A DNA stretch of 64,000 nucleotides, from assembly GCA_018262795.1 (NCBI GenBank), contig JADFDM010000001.1, positions 280,283 to 344,282 of the forward strand. The letters are read 5' to 3'. The stretch comes from Sphingobacteriales bacterium. GTDB lineage: Bacteria; Bacteroidota; Bacteroidia; Chitinophagales; LD1. Each line of letters opens with the position of its first letter. Position 1 is the first letter of the stretch. Below the pieces are notes generated by a model. That model did not search any database and had not been told where the DNA came from. It was given only the letters and a program-made list of their open reading frames with translations. Below, piece by piece: positions 14,485 through 62,688 of this stretch. A program made the position numbers and the translations under genes.

Positions 14485-15984
14485 TCAACCCTTCTTTGTA
14501 AACCTCAAATCGCCCCGCCTACATATTTTATGTTGCGGGATGGTTATTTTGAGAGCGGCATGTATATCGGCATTGTACACATATTTTTTGGCAAACAAAC
14601 CCAACAAATCCTGCGTGCCGATGGTGAGCGGACCTAAGCGTAAGGTGGTGCCGATGCTGAAGTTCCCATTTACATCATACGATAAGGGAAGGTACACGCC
14701 AATCCATTTGTTCTCGTATTTTCCGGTAAGGGCAAAGGTGGTAACGTGGTGCACCATCCTCCATTGTGGCGACATGTTGGGTGAAATCATGGCCGACACG
14801 GTGACTCCGAAATCTTTCCAAATATTGTAATCTACATAGAGATTAAAGCGGGTGGGCAGCCACACGGTGAAGTAAGCGCTGCCGTTTTGTTGCACAAAGC
14901 GCGCTTGGATAGTGTCGTCTAAACTTTGCAAGCCATCGGGATATTGTGCGTTGCCCACGTTCCAGTTTTGAATGTCGGCATAAAAATCACGGCTATCAGC
15001 AGAGCGCTTCAACCGCAATGCTCCTAAATCCATCATCGCAAAACCTACCGCCAGTTTATAGCGTTTCTTCTCACTAAAATCTTCGCAGTGGCAATCCATC
15101 ACGGCATCTTTACTTTTATCGGGCCACCATTCATATACCATTCCTAAATCAATGGCAGCAGTGGGTTTACCGGCTTTAAACGCCATTGCCTCGCGCAGGT
15201 AGTTCATCGGGCCGGCTTGGGCGCTGTTCCCGGAAGAGGAGGTTAGCCCATCAGAATAAGCATACTTGGCTTCGGTATTGCGAATGCTCAGCAACTCGTA
15301 TTCGCTCCATTGGTAGTTCAGATTTCGCACATAGCCATAGCCTCCGGCAATCGGTTGCAACAACTTAAAAGTGCCCCCTACTTTTATCAAACTTTGCCGT
15401 TTGTTGTACACCACTCGCGAATAGGTAATGCCGAAATCATTCCAGATGGCTCCCTTTAGTGAAAGGTTTCCGTTGTGCAACTCAGCTCCCATGTAGTGAG
15501 TCAGCGCATTGGCTTGCGTGCCGAGGCCGTGATAGGCAGTGCGGGCAAATACTTCGGTGATGTTATCGGCATTGAACACCGCGTTGGCGTGGTAGCTGAA
15601 ACCGATGGCATTCAAGTATCTGTTTTTCTTGGGGCCGAAGGAGAACATAAAGGACAATGGCCCCTGTATCTGTGCTCCAAAATAGCCGCTTTTGTTCTTT
15701 CCATTCACCCGTTCGTGCAGGTAGGAGGTTTGAAAATCGGACCGGTTGAAATAGGAGGGATGCAGCAGCGCCTTGCGGTCTATCCCCACATAATTATTGT
15801 TGATCGTGGCAGCAGCACTAATCAGGTTAATATCCACCAAAAAGGGACTGTTGGCCATGGCCGGGTTGTAATTTACATTGGTAATTCCTCCGTAAGCGCT
15901 GCCTCGCAGGCCGAGGAAGAATTGGGCGTTTGCTTCGAGCGTGAAGCAAACGGCCAAGAAGAGTGCTGACAAACTTTTGTTCAT
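14485..15984 (-). CDS. DUF5723-like outer membrane beta-barrel protein
   Basis: Signal peptide, SAYGGITNVNYNPA N-terminus, alternating beta-strand pattern, and LPTRFNLYVDY and LRLGPLTIGT near the C-terminus. Confidence 0.7.
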   Translation of the reverse strand: MNKSLSALFLAVCFTLEANAQFFLGLRGSAYGGITNVNYNPAMANSPFLVDINLISAAATINNNYVGIDRKALLHPSYFNRSDFQTSYLHERVNGKNKSGYFGAQIQGPLSFMFSFGPKKNRYLNAIGFSYHANAVFNADNITEVFARTAYHGLGTQANALTHYMGAELHNGNLSLKGAIWNDFGITYSRVVYNKRQSLIKVGGTFKLLQPIAGGYGYVRNLNYQWSEYELLSIRNTEAKYAYSDGLTSSSGNSAQAGPMNYLREAMAFKAGKPTAAIDLGMVYEWWPDKSKDAVMDCHCEDFSEKKRYKLAVGFAMMDLGALRLKRSADSRDFYADIQNWNVGNAQYPDGLQSLDDTIQARFVQQNGSAYFTVWLPTRFNLYVDYNIWKDFGVTVSAMISPNMSPQWRMVHHVTTFALTGKYENKWIGVYLPLSYDVNGNFSIGTTLRLGPLTIGTQDLLGLFAKKYVYNADIHAALKITIPQHKICRRGDLRFTKKG

Positions 15985-16304: not shown

Positions 16305-19300
16305 TCAATCTTCCGTCAGGGTGCTTGCCTTCATCATTTCTTTTAACTGGGCATTATCCTGCGAGAGCATATCTACTGTATCTTGTAGGTCTTCAATCAT
16401 CTTTTGTTGTTCCTGCACGGCTTTAACCAAAGGCACTACAAACTCGGCATAACTGATTTTGTACACATCCTGCTCATTCTGTGGCGTGGTAACTCCCGAA
16501 AAGTTAAAGTTCGATTCTTTGGCGGCCTGTTCTACTTGTTGGGCCAAAAAGCCGGTGTATTGTATGCTCTCTTTGTTTCGCTTGGCCTCGTTCCAGTCTT
16601 TTGCATCCTCTTCGTTCTTTAATTTGAAATTGGTGATGGCTTCGTATTTGTCGAGGTCAAGGTGATAGGTAACCGGTTTAAGCCGTTTAATAAATTCAAG
16701 TCCCGGAACATTCTCTGTTACCTTTTTCTTTATTCGTTGATCTGAAATATTGCTCCAGTTGGTCCATCCGCCAGTCACTGTAACACTGGAATTTCCTAAA
16801 AGGGCAACATTGCTGGAAGTAGTCAGGCAGTTAGCTCCCACCACAGTTACATTGTGTTGTGTAGAGGTGCCACTATTAGGGTTTGCATTATAGCCAACTG
16901 CAGTATTTAGGTATCCTTGAGATAACACATCATCGGCACCATAACCCAGAGCGGTATTTTCATAACCGGTAGAATTGGCATTCATGCAGGTTCCAAGAGC
17001 TACATTGTAATATCCCGTGGTGTTGTTCGGCATAGAGCTATAGCCGGTGGCTGTATTATAGTAACCGGTTGTGTTGTCATACATACTGGTGTAACCTATA
17101 GCTGTATTTCGGTAACCATTTGAAACGCTGGTAGGGTTATTATGGTATAAAGAATAATTACCTATAGCTGTATTATAGGTGCCGTAAGCTGCATTTCCAT
17201 TAGCATATGATTGGTAGTACATAGCATAATAACCCATTGCACAATTATAGCTGGCATAGGTGTTAAGATACAAGGCAGAGTAACCTATAGCAGTATTACT
17301 ACCTCCCTCCGCATTATACCGCATAGAATTATCGCCAATCGCAGTATTTGCGGATCCTGTTGTATTTGAAAACAGGGAGTAAAGCCCGGACGCTGTATTG
17401 TAATTACCTGTCAGATTATTAAACATAGAATAATAACCAACAGCTGTATTAGATGCCCCGGTTGTATTCTCTCGAAGTGAAGCATATCCTACTCCGGTAT
17501 TGTAGGAACCTGAGGTAAGGGAGGTAAGACACAAAGCCCCCACAGCCGTAGTGTTTTTTGCAATGGTAGCGGAGGTCATAGCGGCATAGCCCACCGCTGT
17601 ATTTTCCCCGGTACTTGTATAGCTATATAGGGCAGAGTCACCTATGGCTACATTTTGTCTTGAAGTGGATGCATTATACAAGGCCTTGTTACCTATGGCC
17701 ACATTTTGATAGCCATTACCTATGTTGTACATGGCCGAATGTCCCACGGCTACATTGTGATAACCTGATGTAATGTTATATCCTGATTGATACCCTAACA
17801 TAGTATTCATCTCCGGGGTGGATGCTGTAGCTGTACTGCCGAACAATGCTTCTTTGCCGAAAGCGGTATTCTCACTTCCGGTGGTATTATTATTTGCCGC
17901 GAACTGTCCCATCACTGTGTTATCACTTCCTGTCGTATTATCCTGTCCGGCATAAGCTCCTACATAGCTATTGCCAACGGCCGTAGTGCTGCTTTGTAAG
18001 GTGTAGTAGCCCACTGCTGTATTCTGCTCACCGGTGGTGTTCGAGTTCATAGCATCGGTTCCTACTACCGTATTTCGGTAGCCGCTGGTGTTTGTCCCTA
18101 ATGAATTAAACCCGATGCTCACATTGCTATATCCGGTATTGTTTTGTAAGGCTTGGCTGCCGATAGCTGTATTCCAATAGGTTGAGTTGTTACTATAAAG
18201 CGCATGATATCCAATGGCCGTGTTATGAAAACCGTTAGTATTGGCGAAGAGCGATTTGGAGCCCACTGCCGTATTGTTCTCTCCAAACGTGTTGCTGAAT
18301 AAAGAAGAATCACCCACAGCCACCAGAAAACTTTTTTGAGTGTTGTTATACAGCGACCCGCTTCCTACGGCTACATTATGATAGCCGGTCACATTTAGCA
18401 GTAGAGATTGATAACCTACAGCTGTATTTCCTGAACCGGTATTATTCCAACCTAAGGAGGCCTGGCCCACTGCTGTATTGGTGCCTCCAACGATGTTAGC
18501 CCCCAATGCTTCACTACCGAGTGCGGTATTTCCTGACCCGGTAGAATTTGAATTCAAACTATAATACCCTATTGCTGTATTTGAAATTCCTGTGGTGTTC
18601 GATTTGAGAGCCCAGTTGCCCAACGAAGAGTTATTAATACCGGTGGTGTTGAAATAAAGAGCCTGATAACCGGTGGCGGTGTTGTTGCTTCCCGTAGTAT
18701 TACTCCACAGCGTTTGATAGCCGGTGGCGGTGTTGTAGTTGCCGGTGTTAGCGCTGGCAGTACTGGAGCCACGTAGTGCTTCATAGCCAATCGCTACATT
18801 GTAGCAGGTAAAGGGAGTTGCGGCACTATTTGCATAGTACATGGCGTTATAGCCAACAACAGTGGCGTTAGAGCCGGCTATATTGGAAGTAAATGCAAGA
18901 TGTCCAAGAGCGGTGTTGTTGCTCCCTATAGTGTTTTTGTAAAGAGCTTGCAGTCCGATAGCGGTATTGTTGCTGCCGGATGTATTGAAAAAAAGGGCAT
19001 TCCCACCGAAGGCAGCATTGTTGATTCCCGTGATATTGTTCCACATTACTTGGTAGCCGAGGGTGCTATTATAGTTTCCTGTGGTGTTAGAGAATAGAGC
19101 TTGAGTTCCGATAGCTGTGTTCTGTCCTCCGGTAGAGTTGTTTTTAAGTGCCTCATTTCCGTTCGCTACATTGTTATTTCCACCGATGTTTTCGTACAGT
19201 GCACTGTTCCCTGTGGCGGTATTATACCAACCGGTAGTGTTAGAAGTAAGAGCATTTGATCCGATGGCAGTATTTCTGCTTCCAGTGCTGTTAGCATATA

Positions 19301-20330
19301 ATGTCGCCTTTCCGTTGGCTGTATTATCACTTCCGGATGAATTGTACCTCATGGTTTTATAACCCGTAGCGGTGTTGTAGTTGCCGGTGTTGGCACTGGC
19401 GGTGACCGAGCCGCGCAGGGCTTCATAGCCAATCGCTACATTGTTATTGGTAAATGGGGTGGCAGTGTTGTTAGAAAACTGCATAGCATAGGCCCCGATA
19501 GCAGTGGCATTAGAACCGGCTACATTGGAATAAAGTGACTGATTACCGATAGTGGTGTTAAAACTTCCTGTGGTACTCGAATAAAGCGTTGATGCTCCAT
19601 TAGCAGTGTTTGAACTTCCGGTGGTGTTGTGGACAAGCGCATTTACTCCCAATGCTGAATTTTGATCTCCCGTAGAATTTAGTGCCAACGCAAAGCTGCC
19701 GATGGCCGTATTCCCAAATCCTGTCGAGCTAAGGGAAAGGGAGTTTTCACCGAATGATGAGTTAAAAGTTCCAGTAGAGGCCATATTTCCACTTTTGTAA
19801 CCCCAGTAGGTGTTGTGTAATAATTGGTCTATACGTCCACTCATTTGGTTATTTACCCGCACTGTAAAAGGAACATTATCTGTAGTACCAATAAAGTTGG
19901 TGCCGTCCACGGTGCTTGCATTGCCGATGGTACGCCAGTCGTTAGCAGTAGCATTCGCTACTACAGAATCGGCCGGTTTCCAGGTGGCATTGCCTAAAGC
20001 ATCGCTCATCAATACATAATCGTATCCCTGTGAGCCGTCTACCAATCGAAAGTTTCCATTCACATGAAGCCGTGAAGAAGGTGTAGCAGTTCCAATGCCT
20101 ACATTGCCGGTACTATCAACTACTGCTCTTTCAGCGTTATTGGTTCGTATGCGCCAACTAACATTGTCGGTAGTTCCAATAAAGTTGGTTCCGCTATTAG
20201 TGCCGGAGTTCCCTTTTACTTTCCAGAAGGGGAAGGTTGGGTTTTGCACTTCGGCTTGCCCCTTTAACTGAAGGTGAAAAGCCGAGAGACCTATCACACA
20301 CAGAGTCAATAACCAGATATTCTTTTTCAT
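16305..20330 (-). CDS. Secreted trimeric fibre-like protein: N-terminal W-x-GN modules, long array of ~14-aa NTAxG repeats, C-terminal Peptidase S74 intramolecular chaperone and coiled coil
   Basis: Signal peptide; dozens of NTA(I/T/V)GxxAL repeats; ISDQRIKK (S-D-x-R-x-K); LKPVTY, YTGFLAQQVE and VPLVKAVQEQQ motifs. Confidence 0.88.
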   Translation of the reverse strand: MKKNIWLLTLCVIGLSAFHLQLKGQAEVQNPTFPFWKVKGNSGTNSGTNFIGTTDNVSWRIRTNNAERAVVDSTGNVGIGTATPSSRLHVNGNFRLVDGSQGYDYVLMSDALGNATWKPADSVVANATANDWRTIGNASTVDGTNFIGTTDNVPFTVRVNNQMSGRIDQLLHNTYWGYKSGNMASTGTFNSSFGENSLSLSSTGFGNTAIGSFALALNSTGDQNSALGVNALVHNTTGSSNTANGASTLYSSTTGSFNTTIGNQSLYSNVAGSNATAIGAYAMQFSNNTATPFTNNNVAIGYEALRGSVTASANTGNYNTATGYKTMRYNSSGSDNTANGKATLYANSTGSRNTAIGSNALTSNTTGWYNTATGNSALYENIGGNNNVANGNEALKNNSTGGQNTAIGTQALFSNTTGNYNSTLGYQVMWNNITGINNAAFGGNALFFNTSGSNNTAIGLQALYKNTIGSNNTALGHLAFTSNIAGSNATVVGYNAMYYANSAATPFTCYNVAIGYEALRGSSTASANTGNYNTATGYQTLWSNTTGSNNTATGYQALYFNTTGINNSSLGNWALKSNTTGISNTAIGYYSLNSNSTGSGNTALGSEALGANIVGGTNTAVGQASLGWNNTGSGNTAVGYQSLLLNVTGYHNVAVGSGSLYNNTQKSFLVAVGDSSLFSNTFGENNTAVGSKSLFANTNGFHNTAIGYHALYSNNSTYWNTAIGSQALQNNTGYSNVSIGFNSLGTNTSGYRNTVVGTDAMNSNTTGEQNTAVGYYTLQSSTTAVGNSYVGAYAGQDNTTGSDNTVMGQFAANNNTTGSENTAFGKEALFGSTATASTPEMNTMLGYQSGYNITSGYHNVAVGHSAMYNIGNGYQNVAIGNKALYNASTSRQNVAIGDSALYSYTSTGENTAVGYAAMTSATIAKNTTAVGALCLTSLTSGSYNTGVGYASLRENTTGASNTAVGYYSMFNNLTGNYNTASGLYSLFSNTTGSANTAIGDNSMRYNAEGGSNTAIGYSALYLNTYASYNCAMGYYAMYYQSYANGNAAYGTYNTAIGNYSLYHNNPTSVSNGYRNTAIGYTSMYDNTTGYYNTATGYSSMPNNTTGYYNVALGTCMNANSTGYENTALGYGADDVLSQGYLNTAVGYNANPNSGTSTQHNVTVVGANCLTTSSNVALLGNSSVTVTGGWTNWSNISDQRIKKKVTENVPGLEFIKRLKPVTYHLDLDKYEAITNFKLKNEEDAKDWNEAKRNKESIQYTGFLAQQVEQAAKESNFNFSGVTTPQNEQDVYKISYAEFVVPLVKAVQEQQKMIEDLQDTVDMLSQDNAQLKEMMKASTLTED

Positions 20331-20340
20331 GCGTAGAAAT

Positions 20341-20691
20341 TTAGTGGGTATGAACGAATTGCTGACGCTTTATTTTTTTTATGGCTGAATGATTAGGGGG
20401 GGTAGATTGTGCTTGATTGGTTTTAGTAGTTGAATTTCTATCCGGATGTTCACTGCCGGCTATGCTATCGGTAGCTACTAAATTTGATTTAAGCGGGGTG
20501 CTGCTTCTCTTACTTGGGTTCCCCACTATGACCGCAGTATCTCTACGCGCTAACTGATAGTTGGGAACCAGTCTGACTGTTGTCAGGCAGGGGTGGGTCT
20601 GTTTGGTTGCCACTACCGTTTTACAGCGAGATACGCTCTGAGCATTATCTGCCGGAAGTATTGAAAACAAAAAGAACAGAATCTTAAGCAT
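20341..20691 (-). CDS. Hypothetical 116-aa protein with hydrophobic N-terminus
   Basis: Fits the operon with gaps of about 10 bp on both sides. Low complexity, no recognisable domain. Confidence 0.5.
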   Translation of the reverse strand: MLKILFFLFSILPADNAQSVSRCKTVVATKQTHPCLTTVRLVPNYQLARRDTAVIVGNPSKRSSTPLKSNLVATDSIAGSEHPDRNSTTKTNQAQSTPPNHSAIKKIKRQQFVHTH

Positions 20692-20702
20692 GGATGGAAG
20701 TT

Positions 20703-21371
20703 TTAATAGAATGCGATATAGCTAATGGAAATTCCGCCTGTAATTCCGCTGCCGGTGCGATTAGTGAGCGAAATATTAAAAGAACCATTATCGGTTTGCA
20801 CATTGTTGATGGAGATTTTATCTGAGATAGGGTTACTGGTAGTAAAAGAAACGCTGATAGAGCTTTCTTCCCGGCAATCAGCATCAATAATGGTAAATAC
20901 TTGAGTGGTTCCGGTCGCCCAGGTGCCGGTCCAAGTAAGCCCCGCGTAGTACTTGGCAATAATGGTAGTGGCAGTTGGGTTTCCTATTGTAAAAGGACTC
21001 CAAGTAGCAGCAGCGTTTGCCCCTCCTGAAAGCAGAAATTGCCCGGATGTGCCGGCACTGCCACCCGGCATAAATGCTTGGCTTAATTTAAAGTTGCCAA
21101 CCACTTCTAATTTCTCGGAGGGAGCAGCGGTGCCTATCCCCATGTTGCCTAAGCTGTCCAGAATTGCCTTCTGCGTATTGTTCGTTCTAAAACGCAGCGA
21201 GGAGTTGTTAGCCGTGCCGATAAAGTTGCTGGTGCCGATTCCCGTATTGCCATTTGTACGCCAAAATGGAGAGGCAGGGTTCTGCGTTTCGTTTTGTGCG
21301 AACAAGTTGGCCGAGGCTAAAAAAAGCAGCAGAATAAGTATCTGCTGCTTGTGATTCAAATTTAGTGTCAT
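20703..21371 (-). CDS. Short secreted fibre/tip-like protein sharing the N-terminal module of the S74 proteins
   Basis: Signal peptide, NPASPFWRTNGNTG...NFIGTANNSSLRFRTNN...GNMGIGT, then a beta-rich C-terminal domain. Confidence 0.75.
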   Translation of the reverse strand: MTLNLNHKQQILILLLFLASANLFAQNETQNPASPFWRTNGNTGIGTSNFIGTANNSSLRFRTNNTQKAILDSLGNMGIGTAAPSEKLEVVGNFKLSQAFMPGGSAGTSGQFLLSGGANAAATWSPFTIGNPTATTIIAKYYAGLTWTGTWATGTTQVFTIIDADCREESSISVSFTTSNPISDKISINNVQTDNGSFNISLTNRTGSGITGGISISYIAFY

Positions 21372-21381
21372 GACAAAAATT

Positions 21382-24924
<3,543 letters not shown>

Positions 24925-41070: not shown

Positions 41071-44000
41071 TTAACGGATCAGTGTGATTGATCCTTTGTA
41101 ATCAGATTTTGAACCATCTATAAAAACAGTTTTCATGAGGTAGATGTAAACCCCGTTTTCAGAAGGGCTGCCTCGATAGCTGCCGTCCCAAGTAAAGCGG
41201 GGGCTGTTCGTCTCATATACTTTCTCGCCCCAGCGATTAAAAATTTGGAACTCGAAATATTCCACCGTACTCATATCACCATATACTTGCAGCACATCAT
41301 TATTGCCATCATTATTCGGTGTAAATGCGTTGGGCACAAAGAGGGAAGAAACAGCTTTTACTTCAATAGCTACGGTGTCGGTAGCGCTGCACCCATTTTC
41401 ATCTTTCACCAGAAATGTATAGGTGGTAGAAGAGGAGGGGATCGCTTGTGTTACATCGCAAGAGGAACACTGCATGCCAAAGGAAGGCGACCATGAATAA
41501 GTGTTGTGGTGATCTTCGCTCGCCTGCCCGGTTAAGGTAATTGCCTGTCCGGCTGTGGTCGTTTGCGAAGCATTAGCTTGAGCGGTTAAAGTGTAATCAT
41601 ACAGCACCTGATAGCTGGCCGTTACGGAGCAGTGATGAACGTCATTCACGGTCACGGTATAGATACCTATGGCGAGTTGCTCAATAGTAGCTGTGTTATC
41701 TCCATTACTCCAGTCGTAGCTGTAGGCCGGGGTTCCGCCAGCAGCAGTCAACTGAATATTTCCGTTGCTCACTTCGGGGCACGAAGTAGGGTGAACCGCT
41801 GCTTGCAGCATTAAAGGTTGGGCTTCGCTCACAGTAGCACTCTTCGTCAAACTGCATCCGTGAACATCTAACACCGTGACGGTGTAGGTGCCTGCATCCA
41901 GGTCGTGAACAAATTCTGCTGAATCATTTGTGCTCCACAGATAGCTGTAAGGAGGGGTTCCGCCCGATACGCCCAGATGCACCGCCCCACCGGTTCCGCT
42001 GCAACCTGCCGGGTAAGTGAGCGCGTTGGCGCTAAACTGCTGGGGCTGATTCACGAGGATGTTGGAAACCACTTTGTGACAGTGCTGCGCATCACTCACG
42101 GTAACGGAATAGCTGCCGGCTGTTATATTGGATAGATTTTGAGAAGTAGCAGTGTTGCTCCACTGATAAGAGTAAGGAGCTGCTCCGCCCGTTACACTTA
42201 GGCTAATAGTGCCTTCGTTGCCGCCATAGCATTTTACATCACCGGTGCTATCGCTTATAATAATAGCCGCAGATTGATAGATGGTCGTTGAATTAGTAGC
42301 GGCACAGTTGTTGGCATCGCGCACCAACACATCATACACTCCTGCGGGAACTTGGTGCAAATCTTGCGACCCGGCTCCGGTATTCCAAGTGTATTGATAA
42401 GGGGCAATGCCCCCTGAAACATTCAAATCAATTTCTCCCGTAGGGCTGCCGTTGCAGGTAACATCGGTTTTGCTGATGGTGGTATTTATCGGAGGCAATG
42501 CGGCAATGTTGATGCTTTGAGTAGCGGTGCAATGATTGGCATCGGTCAATATCACAGAATAGTTTCCGGTATTCAATTGGGTGCGGTTTTGGGTGGTAGC
42601 GCCATCCGACCACAACAGGCTATATGGCATAGCGCCTCCGCTTGCTGCGATATTTATAGAACCACCGCTACCGGCACAAGCATATGCAGTATGAGTTTCG
42701 CTCAGGGCAATAGCTGCCGGTTCGGTGATAGTAACTGACTTTTGAGCCGAGCAATTATTGCCGTCTGTGATGGTAAGGGTATAAGTGTTTGCCGAAATAT
42801 TTTGGATGCTTTGAGTAGTAGCGCTGTTGCTCCACTGATAAGTATAGCTGCCGCTACCACCGGTTGAGGTGATGTGGATGTTGCCATCGGAACTTCCGTT
42901 ACAGCTTATGTTTTGATGTGTTTCTGTTATTTGTATAGCCGAAGGTTGAGCAATAGTAGCTGAAGCAGTGGCCTCACAGTTGGTGGCATCGGTTACGGTG
43001 AGGTGATAAGTATTGGCAGTTAAGTTGCCGATGTTTTGGGTAGAAGCAGCATTGCTCCATTGATAGAAATAAGTATTGCCGTTCAGTGGAATGCCTCCGC
43101 TTACTGCGGTGCTAATGACCCCGTTGGCTCCACCAAAGCAGGTAGCATCTGTTACGCTTAGTGCCACCTGAATGGCCGGTGCCTGATTCACATTTACCGA
43201 AGCGGTGGCTACGCAAGAGTTGCCATCTATTACACTCACCGAGTAGTTACCTGCGGGAATGTTACTCACGTCTTGGGTAGTAGCTCCGTTATTCCAAACA
43301 TATTGATAAGAAGGGATTCCTCCACTTACGCTTAGGTTGATACTTCCGGTGTTGGAGCCGCTACATCCCGCATTAGTCGTAGTAGTGGTTAACTGAATCG
43401 CAGAAGGCTCAGTTACGTTCATTGCCTTTGAAGCTGAACAGCCGTTTCCATCGGTTACAGTTACGGCAAAACTACCCGAAGAAAGTCCGGCTATATTTTG
43501 TGTAGTGGCTCCGTTGTTCCAGTGATAGGTATAGGTTTCGTTGCCTCCGGTGGTCAGGGTTTGTAGGCTGCCGTTTGCTCCTCCTTGACATGAAACATGG
43601 GTGATGGTTTCTGCAATACTGATAATCGCAGGTTCTGTTACCATAGCAGAAGCAGTGGCCGAACAGCCTTTGCTATCAGTTGCTGTGACTGCATAAGCCC
43701 CTGCATTCAGTTGGCTGATGTTAGCGCTGGAAATTCCGTTGTTCCAGCTATAAGAATAAGTGCCGTTGCCTCCGGTGGCAGAAGCCGTTAAACTACCGTT
43801 GTTGCCTCCGTTGCAGCTAACAGGAACCATCGAAATATTGACAATTACTGCTGCGGGTTCATTGATAATCACAGAGGTAGATGCTCCACAGTTGTTTGCA
43901 TCCGTTACGTTCACGGTATAATTTCCGGCAGGTACATTGGCAAGGTCTTCATTTCCCGAAGCGTTACTCCAAGCATATAAATAAGAGCCGGTGCCTCCGC

Positions 44001-46848
44001 TTACCGTTAAGTCAATACTGCCGGTAGAAGAACCGGCACAGGTCGCATCTTGATGAGTACTGCTAAGAGTAACTGCGCTGGGTGCTGCAATAACTACCGA
44101 AGCAGTTGCAGAGCAGGAATTGGCATCCGATACATTGACTGTGTAGCTTCCGGCATTCAGGTTGGTTCTGTTTGAACTACCGTTGCCGTCATTCCAACTG
44201 AAAGAATAAGGAGCCACACCTCCGCTGGCGGCCATAGAAATAGTTGCGTTGTTTCCTCCAAAGCAAGAAACATCTGTATGGGTTTCATTCAAGGTAAGGC
44301 TGCTTCCCTGCTGAATGCTGATGCTTTGAGAAGCTGTGCAGGAATTAGAGTCGCTAACGGTTACAGTGTAATTTCCCGAAGCCAGACTGCTGATGTTTTG
44401 AGTATTAGCGCCATTGCTCCATGCAAAGTTATAAGCATTGCTTCCTCCGCTTACGCTCAGTTGAATACTTCCGGTAGCAGAACCTCCGCAGATTTCATTC
44501 ACATGCGTTTCGCTGATTTGTATCGGAGCAGGCTGCTGAATAGTTCCCGAAGCGGTAACGGTGCATCCGATAATATCATTGGCTGTGACCGAATAATTTC
44601 CTGCCGATAAGTTGGATCTGTTCTGATTGTTGTTGCCATCATCCCACAGATAGGTATAAGACCCCGAATCACTTACTGATACATTAATAGCGCCATTGCT
44701 TAATCCATCGCAAGTCACATCGGTGATGCTCAGGTTCAGCGTTGCTAAAGTCGGTTGGCTTATCGTTGTGGTGGACGACACCGAACATGCGTGCATATCG
44801 GTCACCGTTACGGAATAAGTTCCTGCCGGTAAAGTATCTCTGAGTTGCGTGTTTCCGCCATCATTCCAGGTATAGGTATAAGGGGCAAAGCCGCCTGTCA
44901 CATTCAAATGAACATAACCATCTGTTCCGCCAAAGCAAGTTACATCACCACTCGCAGCAGTCAGTTGAATTGCTGATGGCTCATGGATGGTGTAGGCCGA
45001 AGCGGTGGTGCAGCCGTTATGATCGGTGACAGTTACATCAAAATTTCCCCCCGTAAGATTGCTTCTGTTTTGAGTAGCAACCGCATCCGACCAGTTGAAT
45101 GAGTAAGGGCCGACTCCGTTGCTGACCGCTAAGGAGATGCTGCCATCATTCGCTCCACTGCAATTTACATCGGCTGTAGTGGCATTAATAATTATCGGGA
45201 ACGAAGGTTGTGTGATGGTGACACTTTGAGCCGCAGTGCAGGCGTGGTTATCTGTTACCGTTACCGCATAGGTTCCCGATGCAATACTGTTGAGGTCATC
45301 GGTAGTGGCAGCGGGATTCCACGCATAAGCATACGGAGGTAAACCGTTACTTACCGATAAGTCAATGGCCCCGTCTTGGCCGCCATAGCAAGTCACGTTT
45401 TTCTGAGAAGTAGAAAGGCTCATTGCCGTATAAGGTTGTATGGTAGCCGAAGCAACTGCACTGCATCCATTGCCATCGGTTACGGTGACTGAATAAGTGC
45501 CTGAATTAATATTGATTCGATCGGGAGAGATGATGCCGCTGCCCCACCAGTAGGTGTAAGAGCCGGTTCCTCCGCTTACGCTCGTAAACACCGAGCCGGT
45601 AGGTCCGCCCGAACAAGCAAGAGGAGAGGTGGAAGTGCTCACGCTGACCTGTAAAGGTTGAGCGACTGTGTCAGAAGCACTGACCGAACAGCCTTTGTTA
45701 TCGGTCACCGTTACTGAATAAATTCCGGGAGATAAGCCAATTCTGTTTTGCGAAACAATTCCTCCGCCCCAATTATAAGAATAGGGCGAAGTGCCTCCCG
45801 ATACCGAAGTAGTGATGGCTCCATTGTTGCTGGCATAACAAGTAAGGGGAATTGCGTTTACATCTAAAGTCAATAGGGGGGGATCTGTAAGGTTCACTGT
45901 TTTGCTGGCGGTGCATCCGGTAAAAGAAGTGGCGGTAACGGTATAAGCGCCTGCGGCTAAACCGGTGTTGTTGGCACCGGTGCCGCCATTGCTCCAGTTG
46001 TAGGAGTAAGGGCCTGAACTGCCAATTACATTGATGATGTGAATACTTCCGTCATTCCCATGATAGCAATTTGGATTCGTGAAACTGCTGTTGATGCTCA
46101 TGGCTCCGCTCACTTGATTTACAGTAGCGCTCATTGTTACCGAACAGTTTATTTGATCGGTCACCGTAACGGTATAAGTGCCAATGGCTAATGAAGTTCT
46201 ATCTTCAGCGGTGGATCCATCGTCCCATACATAAGAGTAAGCTGGGTAACCGTATTGCACCGTCAAATTTATTTGACCGGTATTGCCGCTGCAACTCGCA
46301 TTGGTCACTGTTGCCGAAGGCACCATGCCCATAGGCTGGGTCACATTAGCAGAGTCAATTCTTACACATCCCGCAGCATCTGTTATCGTGACCTTGTATA
46401 TGGCTGCCGTGATGCTGCCTCTATCTTCCGTTGCAGCGCCATCGCTCCATACAAAAGTATATCCGGGAGTTCCTCCGGCAACTGAAAAATCAATGGCTCC
46501 ATCATTTCCTCCGCCACAAGTAACGGGAGTAATAATGGAGGAAGAAGAAAGAGCGGCAGGCTCGTTGATGCTAACGGATAGGGTGGCGGTGGCCCCCAAA
46601 AAATCGGTCACGGTCACCGTATATAGGCCGGTAGAAATATTTATCCGGTCTTTGTTACTATTGCCATCGGCCCAAGCGTAAGAGTAAGGGGCAAGCCCTC
46701 CCAAAGTGCTTATGTCTATGCTTCCGGTGCTTTCTCCGTGGCAGCTTACATCCGTGTGTGTTTCGCTGACAGATATAGAGGCATTTGCCGATTCAATAGC
46801 AAACGAAAGTGAGATCAATAAAAATAGTCCTCGTAATAAATTTCCCAT
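41071..46848 (-). CDS. SprB-repeat adhesin-like protein with T9SS type B CTD
   Basis: About 22 ~76-aa repeats C..G..GSI.L.VSGG..PY.Y.W....T....L.AG.Y.VTVTD.NGC. CTD FVPNAFTPNNDGNND...FNRWG...WDG...GVYIY. Confidence 0.93.
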   Translation of the reverse strand: MGNLLRGLFLLISLSFAIESANASISVSETHTDVSCHGESTGSIDISTLGGLAPYSYAWADGNSNKDRINISTGLYTVTVTDFLGATATLSVSINEPAALSSSSIITPVTCGGGNDGAIDFSVAGGTPGYTFVWSDGAATEDRGSITAAIYKVTITDAAGCVRIDSANVTQPMGMVPSATVTNASCSGNTGQINLTVQYGYPAYSYVWDDGSTAEDRTSLAIGTYTVTVTDQINCSVTMSATVNQVSGAMSINSSFTNPNCYHGNDGSIHIINVIGSSGPYSYNWSNGGTGANNTGLAAGAYTVTATSFTGCTASKTVNLTDPPLLTLDVNAIPLTCYASNNGAITTSVSGGTSPYSYNWGGGIVSQNRIGLSPGIYSVTVTDNKGCSVSASDTVAQPLQVSVSTSTSPLACSGGPTGSVFTSVSGGTGSYTYWWGSGIISPDRININSGTYSVTVTDGNGCSAVASATIQPYTAMSLSTSQKNVTCYGGQDGAIDLSVSNGLPPYAYAWNPAATTDDLNSIASGTYAVTVTDNHACTAAQSVTITQPSFPIIINATTADVNCSGANDGSISLAVSNGVGPYSFNWSDAVATQNRSNLTGGNFDVTVTDHNGCTTASAYTIHEPSAIQLTAASGDVTCFGGTDGYVHLNVTGGFAPYTYTWNDGGNTQLRDTLPAGTYSVTVTDMHACSVSSTTTISQPTLATLNLSITDVTCDGLSNGAINVSVSDSGSYTYLWDDGNNNQNRSNLSAGNYSVTANDIIGCTVTASGTIQQPAPIQISETHVNEICGGSATGSIQLSVSGGSNAYNFAWSNGANTQNISSLASGNYTVTVSDSNSCTASQSISIQQGSSLTLNETHTDVSCFGGNNATISMAASGGVAPYSFSWNDGNGSSNRTNLNAGSYTVNVSDANSCSATASVVIAAPSAVTLSSTHQDATCAGSSTGSIDLTVSGGTGSYLYAWSNASGNEDLANVPAGNYTVNVTDANNCGASTSVIINEPAAVIVNISMVPVSCNGGNNGSLTASATGGNGTYSYSWNNGISSANISQLNAGAYAVTATDSKGCSATASAMVTEPAIISIAETITHVSCQGGANGSLQTLTTGGNETYTYHWNNGATTQNIAGLSSGSFAVTVTDGNGCSASKAMNVTEPSAIQLTTTTTNAGCSGSNTGSINLSVSGGIPSYQYVWNNGATTQDVSNIPAGNYSVSVIDGNSCVATASVNVNQAPAIQVALSVTDATCFGGANGVISTAVSGGIPLNGNTYFYQWSNAASTQNIGNLTANTYHLTVTDATNCEATASATIAQPSAIQITETHQNISCNGSSDGNIHITSTGGSGSYTYQWSNSATTQSIQNISANTYTLTITDGNNCSAQKSVTITEPAAIALSETHTAYACAGSGGSINIAASGGAMPYSLLWSDGATTQNRTQLNTGNYSVILTDANHCTATQSINIAALPPINTTISKTDVTCNGSPTGEIDLNVSGGIAPYQYTWNTGAGSQDLHQVPAGVYDVLVRDANNCAATNSTTIYQSAAIIISDSTGDVKCYGGNEGTISLSVTGGAAPYSYQWSNTATSQNLSNITAGSYSVTVSDAQHCHKVVSNILVNQPQQFSANALTYPAGCSGTGGAVHLGVSGGTPPYSYLWSTNDSAEFVHDLDAGTYTVTVLDVHGCSLTKSATVSEAQPLMLQAAVHPTSCPEVSNGNIQLTAAGGTPAYSYDWSNGDNTATIEQLAIGIYTVTVNDVHHCSVTASYQVLYDYTLTAQANASQTTTAGQAITLTGQASEDHHNTYSWSPSFGMQCSSCDVTQAIPSSSTTYTFLVKDENGCSATDTVAIEVKAVSSLFVPNAFTPNNDGNNDVLQVYGDMSTVEYFEFQIFNRWGEKVYETNSPRFTWDGSYRGSPSENGVYIYLMKTVFIDGSKSDYKGSITLIR

Positions 46849-61221: not shown

Positions 61222-62688
61222 ATGTTTAAGATGTTCCCCTTGCTGGCACTTTGCTGGCTATGTGCCTTACAGAGCTTTTCCCAAGCTGAAATAAAGAATC
61301 CGGTGACTCCATTTTGGAAGGTCAAAGGAAACTCAGGCACCAACAGCGGCACCTATTTCATTGGCACTACCGATAATGTGAGTTGGCGGGTGCGCACCAA
61401 CAATACGGAGCGAATGGTGGTGGATAGCACCGGCAACGTAGGCATAGGAACAGCTTCGCCCACTACCCGCCTGCACGTGAACGGCAACTTTAGATTGGTG
61501 GACGGCACGCAAGCAAAAAATTTTGTATTGATGAGCGATGCCCTGGGCAATGCCACCTGGAAACATGCCGATTCGGTAGTAGCCAACACGACCACCGGCA
61601 CCGACTGGCATATTACCGGCAATGCCGGCACGGTAGATGGCACTAACTTTATTGGCACTACCGATAATATCCCCTTCAACATACGGGTCAATAATGAGAA
61701 GGCGGGAAGAATAGACCCAAACTTTGAGAATACTTTTTGGGGGTACAAATCGGGATATTCCAATACCACGGGGAGCTGCAATACCGCTAATGGCACCAAT
61801 TCTCTTGTTTCCTCCACTACTGGAACTCAAAACACTGCCAATGGATGCTATGCACTGTATCACAACACATCGGGTTCTTACAATACGGCCAATGGTGCAA
61901 AAGCACTTTATCAGAACACCTTAGGTTCTAGCAATACTGCCAACGGAAAAGAGACGCTGTATAATAATATTACGGGCGAATACAATACTGCCGGGGGATT
62001 GCAGTCGCTTTATTGGAACAACACTGGATCTGAGAATACGGCTATGGGCTATTCTGCACTTATTCACAACAAAACAGGATCCAGCAACACAGCCCTGGGG
62101 AATCTGGCAGATGTGACTACTAATGCATTTAACAACGCCACAGCTATAGGCAATAGAGCCAACACAAACGCCAGCGACAAGATGCGCTTTGGTAATACAA
62201 ACGTTTCTGTGATAGAGGGTCAGGTGGCCTATAGCATCCCGTCTGACGCTCGCTTTAAATATAACGTGACAGAAAGCGATGTGAAAGGATTGGACTTTAT
62301 CAGTCGCTTGCGACCAGTGGAGTATAATTTTGATACTCGCAAGTTTGAAGAATTCCTTACCAAGAACATGACCGACAGCATCCGCGCGAAGCATTTTAAA
62401 AATACTGATTTTACCCCTTCATCAGCTATTCGTCAAAGCGGTTTCATTGCGCAGGAAGTAGAGGAGGTGATGCAAGAAACAGGCTACCACTTCAACGGAG
62501 TGCATAAGCCGGCTAATGAAAACGATAACTATAGTGTATCTTATAGTTTGTTTGTAGTGCCTTTGGTAAAAGCCGTGCAGGAGCAACAGCAAATAATTGA
62601 AACCCTCAAACAGCAAAACGAAGAGTTCAAAAAGCAGAACACGGAAATGAACGAACGCTTAAATGCCTTAGAAAGCAATGGACGATGA
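61222..62688 (+). CDS. Secreted fibre-like protein with S74 intramolecular chaperone; short paralogue of 16305-20330
   Basis: Near-identical N-terminus (PFWKVKGNSGTNSGT.FIGTTDNVSWR), about 9 NTAxG repeats, PSDARFK, LRPVEY, SGFIAQEVE and VPLVKAVQEQQ. Confidence 0.88.
   Translation: MFKMFPLLALCWLCALQSFSQAEIKNPVTPFWKVKGNSGTNSGTYFIGTTDNVSWRVRTNNTERMVVDSTGNVGIGTASPTTRLHVNGNFRLVDGTQAKNFVLMSDALGNATWKHADSVVANTTTGTDWHITGNAGTVDGTNFIGTTDNIPFNIRVNNEKAGRIDPNFENTFWGYKSGYSNTTGSCNTANGTNSLVSSTTGTQNTANGCYALYHNTSGSYNTANGAKALYQNTLGSSNTANGKETLYNNITGEYNTAGGLQSLYWNNTGSENTAMGYSALIHNKTGSSNTALGNLADVTTNAFNNATAIGNRANTNASDKMRFGNTNVSVIEGQVAYSIPSDARFKYNVTESDVKGLDFISRLRPVEYNFDTRKFEEFLTKNMTDSIRAKHFKNTDFTPSSAIRQSGFIAQEVEEVMQETGYHFNGVHKPANENDNYSVSYSLFVVPLVKAVQEQQQIIETLKQQNEEFKKQNTEMNERLNALESNGR

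What the first reader, a model, noticed from the sequence alone, without database searches (positions are those of the whole stretch)
20100..21320. Shared mature N-terminal module NPxxPFW-x3-GN...FIGT in three proteins at two loci
Seen: directly after the signal peptide the proteins read QAEVQNPTFPFWKVKGN (20330 gene), QNETQNPASPFWRTNGN (21371 gene) and QAEIKNPVTPFWKVKGN (61222 gene). Each continues FIGT(T/A)(D/N)N..(W/L)R.RTNN......DS.GN(V/M)GIGT. The two S74 proteins carry a second copy (DW...GNA.TVDGTNFIGTTDN.PF..RVNN). Their downstream parts differ completely. Inference: a conserved docking, trimerisation or export module with swappable heads, analogous to the baseplate-binding end of phage fibres.
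Basis: partly seen in the sequence, partly recalled or inferred. Interest (0 to 1): 0.7.

Follow-up and report, generated by a model that had tools for sequence, protein, structure and literature searches.

The report
N-terminal cap on modular surface fibres
Three secreted fibre proteins do share their first ~100 residues. Most of that stretch is an ordinary shaft repeat found in over 100,000 bacterial fibre proteins, but its first 17 residues are an undescribed motif found only at the very start of fibres from one small Bacteroidota lineage, and may mark where these fibres attach.

Summary
The 1341-aa, 222-aa and 488-aa proteins share about 100 residues directly after a signal peptide, and a fourth protein on contig C9 does too.

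The module is not one dedicated domain. Residues about 12-100 are one copy of a very common shaft repeat: W-x-x-x-G-N...NFIGTTDN...RTNN..R, then GNVGIGT..P...L.V...ATW.
- A profile of it hits 131,817 cluster representatives.
- The best hits carry 10-60 copies each, almost all internal.
- It matches the solved triple beta-helix unit with "capping loop" of Bdellovibrio MAT fibres (8OND, E 7e-16).

What is specific to the N-terminus is a 17-residue cap, Q-x-E-x-x-N-P-x-x-P-F-W-K-x-x-G-N.
- It sits right after the signal peptide in every true case I found (4 in this genome, 25 in 14 other genomes), never internally.
- Those genomes are all Chitinophagales or unclassified Bacteroidetes assemblies. 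It is absent from viral contigs.
- Synonymous sites between the paralogues are saturated, which points to purifying selection.
- It is joined to at least 11 different C-terminal ends.

Cap-bearing genes often follow a collagen-like fibre gene with a conserved C-terminal knob. I read the cap as the shared proximal-end handle of these fibres. That function is inferred, not shown.

The parts
20259..20330 (-). Signal peptide of the 1341-aa fibre (residues 1-24, MKKNIWLLTLCVIGLSAFHLQLKG); predicted cleavage before Q25
   Evidence: Sequence. The Gln at +1 fits the Bacteroidetes Q-rule (PMC5837995). Signal peptides of the four paralogues are dissimilar.
   Evidence: The motif is found only directly after signal peptides: 4 of 4 in this genome, 25 of 25 genuine hits in other genomes, 18 of 18 among 285 homologues. 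It is the most conserved stretch in 51 aligned N-termini.
19956..20207 (-). First shaft repeat unit of the 1341-aa fibre (residues 42-125): motif A (NFIGTTDN..W.IRTNN.ER) plus motif B, the capping loop (GNVGIGTATPSSRLHV...ATW)
   Evidence: The profile hits 131,817 representatives, mostly as multiple internal copies. PDB 8OND E 7e-16 and 8OJN E 3e-12.
19827..19940 (-). Second, partial copy (motif A only, D131-D168, DWRTIGNASTVDGTNFIGTTDNVPFTVRVNNQMSGRID), leading into YadA-like repeats
   Evidence: hmmsearch domain 2. The same junction occurs internally in C14:122067-126209 after collagen, and directly after the cap in L021:17426 and L030.
16515..16745 (-). Peptidase S74 intramolecular chaperone of the 1341-aa fibre (residues 1196-1272; SDQRIK motif)
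   Evidence: Pfam PF13884, E 5.6e-6, above the cut-off.
21297..21371 (-). Signal peptide of the 222-aa fibre (residues 1-25)
   Evidence: Sequence. Conserved in character across 12 orthologues.
   Evidence: Q, E, N, P, W, G and N are at least 90% conserved in 13 orthologues.
20991..21245 (-). Single shaft repeat unit of the 222-aa fibre (residues 43-127), ending ...AAATWSPF
   Evidence: Same order as Bd2133: beta-helix unit, then ...ATW linker, then tip (PMC10769870).
20706..20990 (-). C-terminal beta-sandwich head of the 222-aa fibre (residues 128-222)
   Evidence: The AlphaFold2 model has strands throughout, with block-mean pLDDT about 47-80 over residues 128-222. Foldseek gives only weak matches to phage and pyocin fibre tips and H-type lectins, best E 0.013. 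No Pfam hit.
20341..20691 (-). 116-aa ORF between the two fibre genes: signal peptide plus an S/T/P/K-rich tail that looks disordered
   Evidence: Proteins of 101-108 aa with the same character fill the same slot in L021/L022 and L024; a further ORF of this kind, cut by the contig end, follows the 222-type gene in L056. Gaps of 10-11 nt to both neighbours. No Pfam hit.
61222..61281 (+). Signal peptide of the 488-aa fibre (residues 1-20)
   Evidence: Sequence.
61282..61332 (+).
61333..61584 (+). First shaft repeat unit of the 488-aa fibre (residues 38-121)
   Evidence: AlphaFold2 with 35 sequences gives pLDDT 86-94 for mature residues 31-70. The top 14 Foldseek hits are all Bdellovibrio MAT fibres.
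61603..61716 (+). Second, partial copy (motif A only, D128-D165) of the 488-aa fibre
62242..62484 (+). Peptidase S74 chaperone of the 488-aa fibre (residues 341-421; SDARFK motif)
   Evidence: Pfam PF13884, E 3.5e-12.
21382..24924 (-). Collagen-like fibre (1180 aa), first gene of the four-gene row. Its N-terminal domain resembles Bdello_MAT_N. Its C-terminal 141-aa knob lies at 21385-21807.
   Evidence: Pfam Collagen, E 4e-115. NCBIfam Bdello_MAT_N 33.5 bits, below the 60-bit cut-off. The knob is 59-72% conserved and lies directly upstream of a cap-bearing gene in 8 of the 9 loci with a close knob, window included.

Best explanation
The shared N-terminus has three parts.

1. A Sec/signal-peptidase-I leader, cleaved before a Gln. 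By the Bacteroidetes Q-rule that Gln is probably cyclised to pyroglutamate.

2. A 17-residue cap, Q-x-E-x-x-N-P-x-x-P-F-W-K-x-x-G-N. It exists only at the mature N-terminus.

3. The first copy of a generic ~85-100-residue shaft repeat. By homology to solved Bdellovibrio MAT fibres, three chains of this repeat intertwine into one triple beta-helix unit, with the GNVGIGT..P...L.V 'capping loop' at its edge.

The proteins are therefore homotrimeric, phage-like fibres encoded by the cell. In the 1341-aa and 488-aa proteins, the C-terminal S74 chaperone is expected to drive trimer folding and then cut itself off. The 222-aa protein is a minimal fibre: cap, one beta-helix unit, then a small beta-sandwich tip.

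The repeat part is plain shaft. The cap is the end of the fibre that faces away from the variable tip. I infer that it is the common handle by which fibres with many different tips are held at a shared partner. That partner could be the trimeric C-terminal knob of the collagen-like fibre encoded just upstream, which has a MAT-type N-terminal domain, or a cell-envelope component.

Shown: the anatomy, the homology, the N-terminal exclusivity of the cap, purifying selection, the diversity of heads, and the gene order.
Inferred: trimer formation, pyroglutamate, and any attachment role.

My confidence in the identity of the parts is about 0.9. My confidence in an attachment or targeting role for the cap is about 0.45.
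For: **The repeat**
- The profile of the three modules hits 131,817 representatives at E<=1e-3. The best carry 10-60 copies each.
- Tandem A+B units are visible in P0001, P0017, P0077, P0107 and P0046.
- Internal copies occur in at least 10 other proteins of this genome.

**Structure**
- PDB 8OND (Bd2133) E 7e-16, 8OJN (Bd3182) E 3e-12, 8OML E 6e-7.
- The capping-loop consensus V-G-G/N-pi-x-x-P-x-x-x-L is described in PMC10769870.
- The AlphaFold2 model of the module has a confident core, and its 14 best Foldseek hits are all MAT fibres.

**The cap**
- It sits at residue 20-33, right after a signal peptide, in 25 of 25 genuine pattern hits from 14 genomes, all Chitinophagales or Bacteroidetes assemblies.
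- 4 of 4 in this genome. 18 of 18 among 285 homologues (17 at residues 23-43; P0047 at 90, read as a mis-called start), none internal.
- It is the best-conserved block in 51 distinct N-termini.
- It is fused either to the A+B unit or directly to the A2/YadA-type shaft, so it is separable from what follows.

**Selection**
- Synonymous sites are saturated while pN is 0.04-0.16. The signal peptides are unrelated.

**Heads**
- 13 of 26 proteins carry S74. Others carry collagen, C1q, Phage_depo_C or no known domain. There are at least 11 C-terminal classes.

**Linkage**
- The collagen-knob gene lies directly upstream on the same strand in the window, L021-23, L024-26, L033, L034 and L042, and in 2 of 3 close-knob loci found by searching with the knob itself.
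- Lone cap-bearing genes (the 488-aa gene, C9, P0171) sit among unrelated genes. This fits a tag that works in trans.
Against: - No result shows binding, localisation or even trimerisation.
- As a monomer, the cap is modelled with pLDDT below 50. No multimer prediction was available.
- Fibre genes of every N-terminal type cluster together. In L054 a MAT_N-type fibre follows the knob, and in L057-59 a different leader type follows a knob relative. Adjacency to the collagen gene may therefore be a paralogue island, not a sign of contact.
- The Gln at +1 is a phylum-wide rule, not a feature of this family.
- A short conserved N-terminal strand could simply close the open end of the beta-helix.
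- Genome-level co-occurrence of cap and knob could not be tested (genome search closed; knob searches empty).
Confidence: 0.55

Rival explanations
1. The cap is purely structural. It is an N-terminal end-piece that closes the exposed end of the triple beta-helix, shielding the hydrophobic core and preventing end-to-end aggregation. It has no partner and no sorting role.
For: - From the W onward the cap is in register with internal repeats (xxW.LTGN against PFWKVKGN).
- Other lineages start the same fibres with other short leaders, for example AQNVGIGT..P. That is what alternative end-caps would look like.
- No dedicated partner gene is conserved next to the lone cap-bearing genes.
Against: - Eleven residues upstream of the W are kept across paralogues whose synonymous sites are saturated, and across 14 genomes. 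They are better conserved than the shaft that follows. That is a lot of constraint for a passive plug.
- The cap does not pack onto the unit in the monomer model, though that is weak evidence.
Confidence: 0.3
2. The cap is a sorting or export signal read after signal-peptide cleavage. It would direct periplasmic fibre subunits to an unknown outer-membrane route, by analogy with the short N-terminal lipoprotein export signal of Bacteroidota.
For: - These fibres have a Sec leader but no T9SS C-terminal domain, no lipobox and no autotransporter anchor. True T9SS cargo lies in the same window.
- Bacteroidota already use a short motif right after the cleavage site to send lipoproteins to the surface (PMC5080379, found; the content is from my own knowledge of that paper).
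- The cap's position is strictly N-terminal.
Against: - No candidate translocon is conserved nearby. DUF5723 downstream of the 1341-aa gene is not syntenic in L021 or L024.
- Fibres with other N-termini in the same genome would need other routes.
- The cap is confined to a very small lineage.
Confidence: 0.12
3. One reading: the whole ~100-residue module is a dedicated docking, trimerisation or export domain, like the baseplate-binding end of phage fibres.
For: The block is shared by fibres with different heads.
Against: - Most of it is the generic repeat and is mainly internal.
- It is homologous to an internal MAT beta-helix unit.
- In other cap-bearing proteins motif B is missing altogether (L021:17426, L030, L047).
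- No viral contig carries the cap, and there is no phage match at E<=1e-5.
Confidence: 0.03

Closest known systems
Bdellovibrio bacteriovorus MAT (mosaic adhesive trimer) fibres, e.g. Bd2133 (8OND), Bd3182 (8OJN/8ONC), Bd1334 (8OML); Caulton et al. 2024, PMC10769870
   Same: - Sec-exported, chromosomally encoded, phage-like homotrimeric fibres.
- The same triple beta-helix unit with the capping-loop motif (E 7e-16).
- Variable tips with or without an S74 chaperone.
- The 222-aa protein repeats the Bd2133 order: beta-helix unit, then ...ATW linker, then beta-sandwich tip.
   Different: - MATs all start with a conserved ~130-aa beta-rich domain (NCBIfam Bdello_MAT_N). The cap-bearing fibres lack it and start with a 17-residue cap instead.
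- Here only the neighbouring collagen-like fibre has a MAT_N-like domain, and it scores below the cut-off.
- The organism is a Bacteroidota (Chitinophagales-like) bacterium, and nothing here suggests it is a predator.
Phage tail fibres and tailspikes with a C-terminal S74 intramolecular chaperone (K1F endosialidase, T5 L-shaped fibre)
   Same: S74 domain with the S-D-x-x-x-K motif in the 1341-aa and 488-aa proteins. Triple beta-helix shaft. Swappable tips.
   Different: - No phage genes nearby.
- The cap is absent from viral contigs, and the module has no tblastn match in 50,697 phage genomes.
- A signal peptide replaces a virion-binding N-terminal domain.
Bacteroidota 'tail fiber domain-containing' / 'beta strand repeat-containing' proteins (unstudied, very large family)
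   Same: The same shaft repeat, YadA-like repeats, S74 ends and collagen inserts.
   Different: Most begin with other leaders. In my rough classification of 270 homologues, 8 have the cap, 15 have the VGIG..P..L.V.S..KG.L.PR leader and 221 fall in 'other'. Many carry PF26696, which is not recorded for the cap-bearing proteins and is not in the local Pfam copy.
Bacteroidota lipoprotein export signal (LES), PMC5080379
   Same: A short motif immediately after the signal-peptide cleavage site. This is an analogy for how the cap might work.
   Different: LES follows a lipidated Cys. These proteins have no lipobox and start with Gln. There is no sequence similarity.

Membership tests
Bdellovibrio MAT fibre family | Conserved ~130-aa beta-rich N-terminal domain right after the signal peptide (NCBIfam NF053851 Bdello_MAT_N) | tested here: not met
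   The N-terminal 145 residues of the 1341-aa protein give no hit at E<=1, and none of the three full proteins hits it. The neighbouring collagen protein hits at 33.5 bits, below the 60-bit cut-off.
Bdellovibrio MAT fibre family | Trimeric beta-helix shaft with the capping-loop motif V-G-G/N-pi-x-x-P-x-x-x-L | tested here: met
   GNVGIGTATPSSRLHV is present. Profile against PDB: 8OND E 7e-16, 8OJN E 3e-12. The top Foldseek hits are all MAT fibres. Trimer formation itself was not tested.
Bdellovibrio MAT fibre family | Variable C-terminal tip, either S74 or non-S74 | tested here: met
   S74 in the 1341-aa and 488-aa proteins. A non-S74 beta-sandwich head in the 222-aa protein.
Phage tail fibre / tailspike with S74 chaperone | C-terminal Peptidase_S74 domain with the Ser-Lys dyad motif SDxxxK | tested here: met
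   PF13884 above the cut-off in both proteins. SDQRIK and SDARFK are seen in the sequence. Cleavage was not tested.
Phage tail fibre / tailspike with S74 chaperone | Encoded in a phage or prophage and attached to a virion through its N-terminus | tested here: not met
   Neighbouring genes are cellular. There are 0 cap matches in viral contigs and no phage match to the module. The proteins carry Sec signal peptides.
Trimeric autotransporter adhesins (YadA type) | C-terminal YadA-type membrane anchor | tested here: not met
   The Pfam scan returns only S74 for these proteins. The YadA-like NTA.G..AL..NT.G repeats are visible by eye only.
Type IX secretion cargo | C-terminal sorting domain (Por_Secre_tail or CHU_C) | tested here: not met
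   No such hit in the three proteins or the small ORF. The SprB-like protein at 41071-46848 in the same window does have CHU_C.
Bacteroidetes Q-rule substrates (SPI cleavage exposing Gln) | Gln at the first mature position after a type I signal peptide | tested here: met
   Q precedes x-E in nearly all of the 51 aligned N-termini; one (L034) has an extra residue and reads Q-S-A-E. The cleavage site and pyroglutamate are inferred from PMC5837995, not measured.

The most novel reading that the evidence does not exclude
The cap is a docking peptide. Trimeric cap-bearing fibres plug co-axially onto the trimeric C-terminal knob of the collagen-like stalk. That stalk is the only fibre in the operon with a MAT-type, presumably cell-anchoring, N-terminal domain. 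One anchored stalk could then carry any of several interchangeable tips encoded both in the operon and elsewhere in the genome. This would be a cellular counterpart of the end-to-end joints of phage long tail fibres. It would also explain how S74 fibres that have no anchor of their own stay on a Bacteroidota cell.
Probability: 0.15. Interest if true: 0.75.

Novelty: new variant of a known kind. Interest (0 to 1): 0.42.

Why it matters
Fibres of this kind (phage-like, S74-ended or MAT-like) are encoded in huge numbers by Bacteroidota and other bacteria. Only the Bdellovibrio examples have been studied. For all of them, it is still unknown how the N-terminal end is held at the cell.

This work separates the ordinary part of the shared module, the shaft repeat, from a small motif that is specific to one position and under selection. 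Such a motif is the kind of feature an attachment or sorting step would read. It also comes with a 222-residue minimal fibre on which to test it.

If the cap proves to be a handle for a common partner, it would show that such fibres are assembled from parts in trans. If it does not, the finding is an ordinary lineage-specific end-cap.

Tried and rejected
- **Recent duplication or gene conversion** as the cause of the similarity: rejected. Synonymous sites are saturated and the signal peptides are unrelated.
- **Phage origin of the cap**: no viral contig matches and no phage tblastn match.
- **Pfam and NCBIfam** on the module, the 222-aa head, the knob and the small ORF: nothing beyond S74, Collagen and a sub-threshold Bdello_MAT_N hit. 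PF26696, recorded on many homologues, is not in the local Pfam copy and could not be named.
- **AlphaFold2 monomer of the 222-aa protein**: poor, mean pLDDT 54. Its fold search gave only weak tip-like matches. The 125-residue module model is confident only for the hairpin and capping-loop core; the cap is below pLDDT 50. No multimer tool was available.
- **Genome-level co-occurrence of cap and knob**: A metagenome scan with the single knob sequence found nothing. The alignment scan gave 7 loci. The search for homologous proteins on the knob region found nothing.
- **Literature search** for GNVGIGT-type strings: 0 papers.
- **Promoter and terminator scan** of the operon: no more sites than in shuffled sequence.
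- **DUF5723 gene** downstream of the 1341-aa gene as a partner: not syntenic elsewhere.
Full report
**1. What is there**

On the minus strand, four genes follow one another with 10-11 nt gaps:
- a 1180-aa collagen-like protein (21382-24924);
- a 222-aa protein (20703-21371);
- a 116-aa ORF (20341-20691);
- a 1341-aa protein ending in a Peptidase_S74 chaperone (16305-20330).

A 488-aa S74 protein lies 41 kb away on the plus strand (61222-62688).

After dissimilar signal peptides, the 1341-aa, 222-aa and 488-aa proteins share about 100 residues. Identity to the 1341-aa protein is 83% for the 488-aa protein and 51% for the 222-aa protein. A fourth protein of the same genome (contig C9, 960 aa) starts the same way. 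The two S74 proteins also have the reported second, partial copy.

**2. Most of the module is a generic shaft repeat**

An HMM of the three modules finds the same two sub-motifs at internal positions of at least ten other fibre-like proteins in this genome:
- motif A: W-x-x-x-G-N...NFIGTTDN...R/K-x-N-N;
- motif B: GNVGIGT-x-x-P-x-x-x-L-x-V...ATW.

For example, they occur after collagen tracts in C14:122067-126209 and three more times inside the C9 protein.

Against 1.84 billion cluster representatives, the profile hits 131,817 proteins at E<=1e-3 and 46,890 at E<=1e-10. The best hits are giant proteins with 10-60 matched stretches each. In P0001, P0017, P0077, P0107 and P0046 the whole A+B unit is plainly a tandem repeat of about 85-100 residues.

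Of 2407 copies in the 150 best hits, only 27 start within the first 60 residues. Of 243 near-full-length units across all 285 homologues analysed, 24 do.

It is met for everything from the W onward.

**3. Its structure is known by homology**

The profile matches the crystallised parts of Bdellovibrio MAT fibres: 8OND Bd2133 E 7e-16, 8OJN Bd3182 E 3e-12, 8OML Bd1334 E 6e-7.

In those structures three chains intertwine into a triangular beta-helix. The V-G-G/N-pi-x-x-P-x-x-x-L motif forms a 'capping loop' on its edge (PMC10769870). Motif B is that loop.

The alignment to Bd2133 spans roughly one whole beta-helix unit. It ends at the ...ATW that leads into the Bd2133 tip. That is the same order as in the 222-aa protein, which goes straight from ...AAATWSPF into a ~95-residue beta-sandwich head.

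An AlphaFold2 monomer model built from 35 cap-bearing N-termini is confident (pLDDT 86-94) only for the hairpin and capping-loop core. Its 14 best Foldseek hits are all MAT fibres.

**4. What is specific to the N-terminus**

The first 17 mature residues read Q-x-E-x-x-N-P-x-x-P-F-W-K-x-x-G-N.

- Among 285 homologues, a regular expression for this cap hits 18 proteins, and never at an internal repeat. In 17 the motif begins at residue 23-43. In P0047 it begins at residue 90, which I attribute to a mis-called start codon.
- In this genome it hits four proteins, all at the N-terminus.
- A back-translated DNA pattern scanned over one genome for each of 185,579 species gave 28 matches in 27 loci.
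- 25 of these are genuine. Every one sits at residue 20-33 behind a signal peptide, in 14 assemblies labelled Chitinophagales, Chitinophaga or Bacteroidetes.
- The other 3 are chance matches.
- The same pattern has no match in 2.9 million viral contigs.

In an alignment of 51 distinct N-termini the cap is the best-conserved block.

It can be followed by the A+B unit. It can also be followed directly by the 'TVDGTNFIGTTDN.PFN.RVNN..AGRID' junction into YadA-like repeats, with no motif B (L021:17426, L030, L047). So the cap is separable from what follows.

Between the paralogues in this genome, synonymous sites are saturated (pS 0.7-0.86 over residues 1-68) while pN is 0.10-0.14. The signal peptides are unrelated. 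This is long-term purifying selection, not recent copying.

**5. Heads**

Of 26 complete cap-bearing proteins, 13 end in S74, 4 contain collagen, one has C1q and one has Phage_depo_C.

Clustering the last 130 residues of 29 proteins gives at least 11 classes. So 'swappable heads' is true.

The 222-aa protein has 12 orthologues at 56-81% identity. One relative (P0163) has the same head on a different N-terminus.

**6. Gene order**

- In related contigs the 222-aa orthologue is followed by a 101-108-aa protein, then a large cap-bearing fibre (L021/L022/L023 and L024-26). In L056 it is likewise followed by such an ORF, cut off at 89 residues by the contig end.
- That small protein has a signal peptide and an S/T/P-rich tail, like the window's 116-aa ORF.
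- L021 has six cap-bearing genes in a row.
- The collagen protein's C-terminal 141-residue knob is 59-72% conserved.
- The knob lies directly upstream, on the same strand, of a cap-bearing gene in the window, L021-23, L024-26, L033, L034 and L042.
- Three close-knob loci were found by searching with the knob itself. In two of them a cap-bearing gene follows: L055 and L056. The cap of L056 is degenerate. In the third, L054, a MAT_N-type fibre follows instead.
- The collagen protein's N-terminal domain, and those of two other collagen fibres in the genome, hit NCBIfam Bdello_MAT_N below the cut-off (33-38 bits against 60). The cap module does not hit it.
- Lone cap-bearing genes (the 488-aa gene, C9, P0171) sit among unrelated genes.

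**7. Interpretation**

Shown:
- the anatomy (signal peptide, cap, first MAT-type beta-helix unit);
- the exclusivity of the cap to the N-terminus and its narrow taxonomic range;
- purifying selection;
- diverse heads;
- recurrent linkage to a collagen-like fibre.

Inferred:
- trimer formation, from homology and from S74;
- cleavage before Gln and pyroglutamate, from the Q-rule (PMC5837995);
- any role of the cap.

I favour a shared proximal-end handle. The partner could be the collagen knob or an envelope component. My reasons are that the cap is more constrained than the shaft behind it, is strictly positional, and is common to dispersed genes with different tips.

The main rival is a passive structural end-cap. 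Fibre genes of all leader types cluster together, so gene order alone does not prove contact. An export-signal reading is possible, because these fibres lack a T9SS domain, a lipobox or an autotransporter anchor. No translocon is linked, however.

**8. Comparison and novelty**

These proteins work like MAT fibres and share their shaft unit and tip logic. They fail one defining MAT feature, the ~130-aa N-terminal domain, so I do not file them as MAT family members.

They are not phage genes. They are not T9SS cargo and not autotransporters.

The shaft repeat is already known. I found no description of the cap in any library searched: Pfam, NCBIfam and the paper library.

I rate the finding a new variant of a known kind, of moderate interest. 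Its value is a short, testable motif, and a 222-residue minimal fibre, for the open question of how such fibres are held at the cell.

**9. Limits**

- No multimer prediction was available.
- The organism's label rests on the names of the nearest homologues' assemblies.

Noticed in passing
window 20341-20691 (-): A 116-aa ORF sits between the 222-aa and 1341-aa genes, with 10-11 nt gaps. It has a signal peptide and an S/T/P/K-rich tail that looks disordered. Proteins of 101-108 aa with the same character occupy the same slot in L021/L022/L023 and L024-26 (23-28% identity); in L056 a similar ORF in that slot is cut by the contig end. An 87-aa secreted charged protein follows a distant knob relative in L057-59. 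No Pfam hit and no T9SS domain. Probably a real, fast-evolving operon member.
   Followed up: partly
window 24670-24894 (-), N-terminus of the collagen-like protein; also C14:83921-85465 and C14:122067-126209 of the genome: Three collagen-like fibres start with a ~110-residue domain (..MNYQAV.R...G....NQ.V..R..I..G...) that hits NCBIfam Bdello_MAT_N at 33-38 bits (E 1e-9 to 3e-8), below the 60-bit cut-off. A MAT-type N-terminal domain may therefore exist in Bacteroidota, on collagen stalks.
   Followed up: partly
window 21385-21807 (-), C-terminal knob of the collagen-like protein: A 141-residue globular end (...[10 protein letters not shown]) is 59-72% identical in eight other loci. It has no Pfam family and no PDB sequence relative was sought. 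It is almost always followed within about 10-280 nt by a cap-bearing fibre gene.
   Followed up: partly
L021:8063-20672: Six consecutive genes all begin with signal peptide plus AQAEVQNP.FPFWK, but their shafts and ends differ (collagen plus S74, the 222-type head, S74, S74, a ...DWQLVTYSNN end, and one cut off by the locus end). This is a tandem array of tip variants behind one collagen giant (2815 aa).
   Followed up: partly
P0163 (relative of the 222-aa protein): It has the same C-terminal head as the 222-aa family, but its N-terminus lacks the cap and motif A. This is direct evidence that N-terminal parts, as well as heads, are exchanged.
   Followed up: no
window 20106-20117 and 61423-61434 (VDST in ..VVDSTGNVGIGT..); about 21147-21158 in the 222-aa gene (LDSL): The D-S-[T/V/L] just before the capping loop fits the general Bacteroidetes O-glycosylation sequon D-(S/T)-(A/I/L/V/M/T), recalled from my own knowledge. 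The generic repeat in other phyla does not keep D-S here. Not tested.
   Followed up: no
window 14485-15984 (-): A DUF5723 protein (499 aa) lies about 320 nt downstream of the 1341-aa gene on the same strand. It is not present at the corresponding place in L021 or L024, so it is probably unrelated to the fibres.
   Followed up: partly
homologues listed: Many relatives carry a precomputed Pfam family, PF26696, that is missing from the local Pfam copy. The cap-bearing proteins in that list (P0167, P0170, P0171, P0175, P0180, P0229, P0247) do not carry it. From the sequences I guess, untested, that it covers the alternative leader VGIG..P..L.V.S..KG.L.PR...
   Followed up: no
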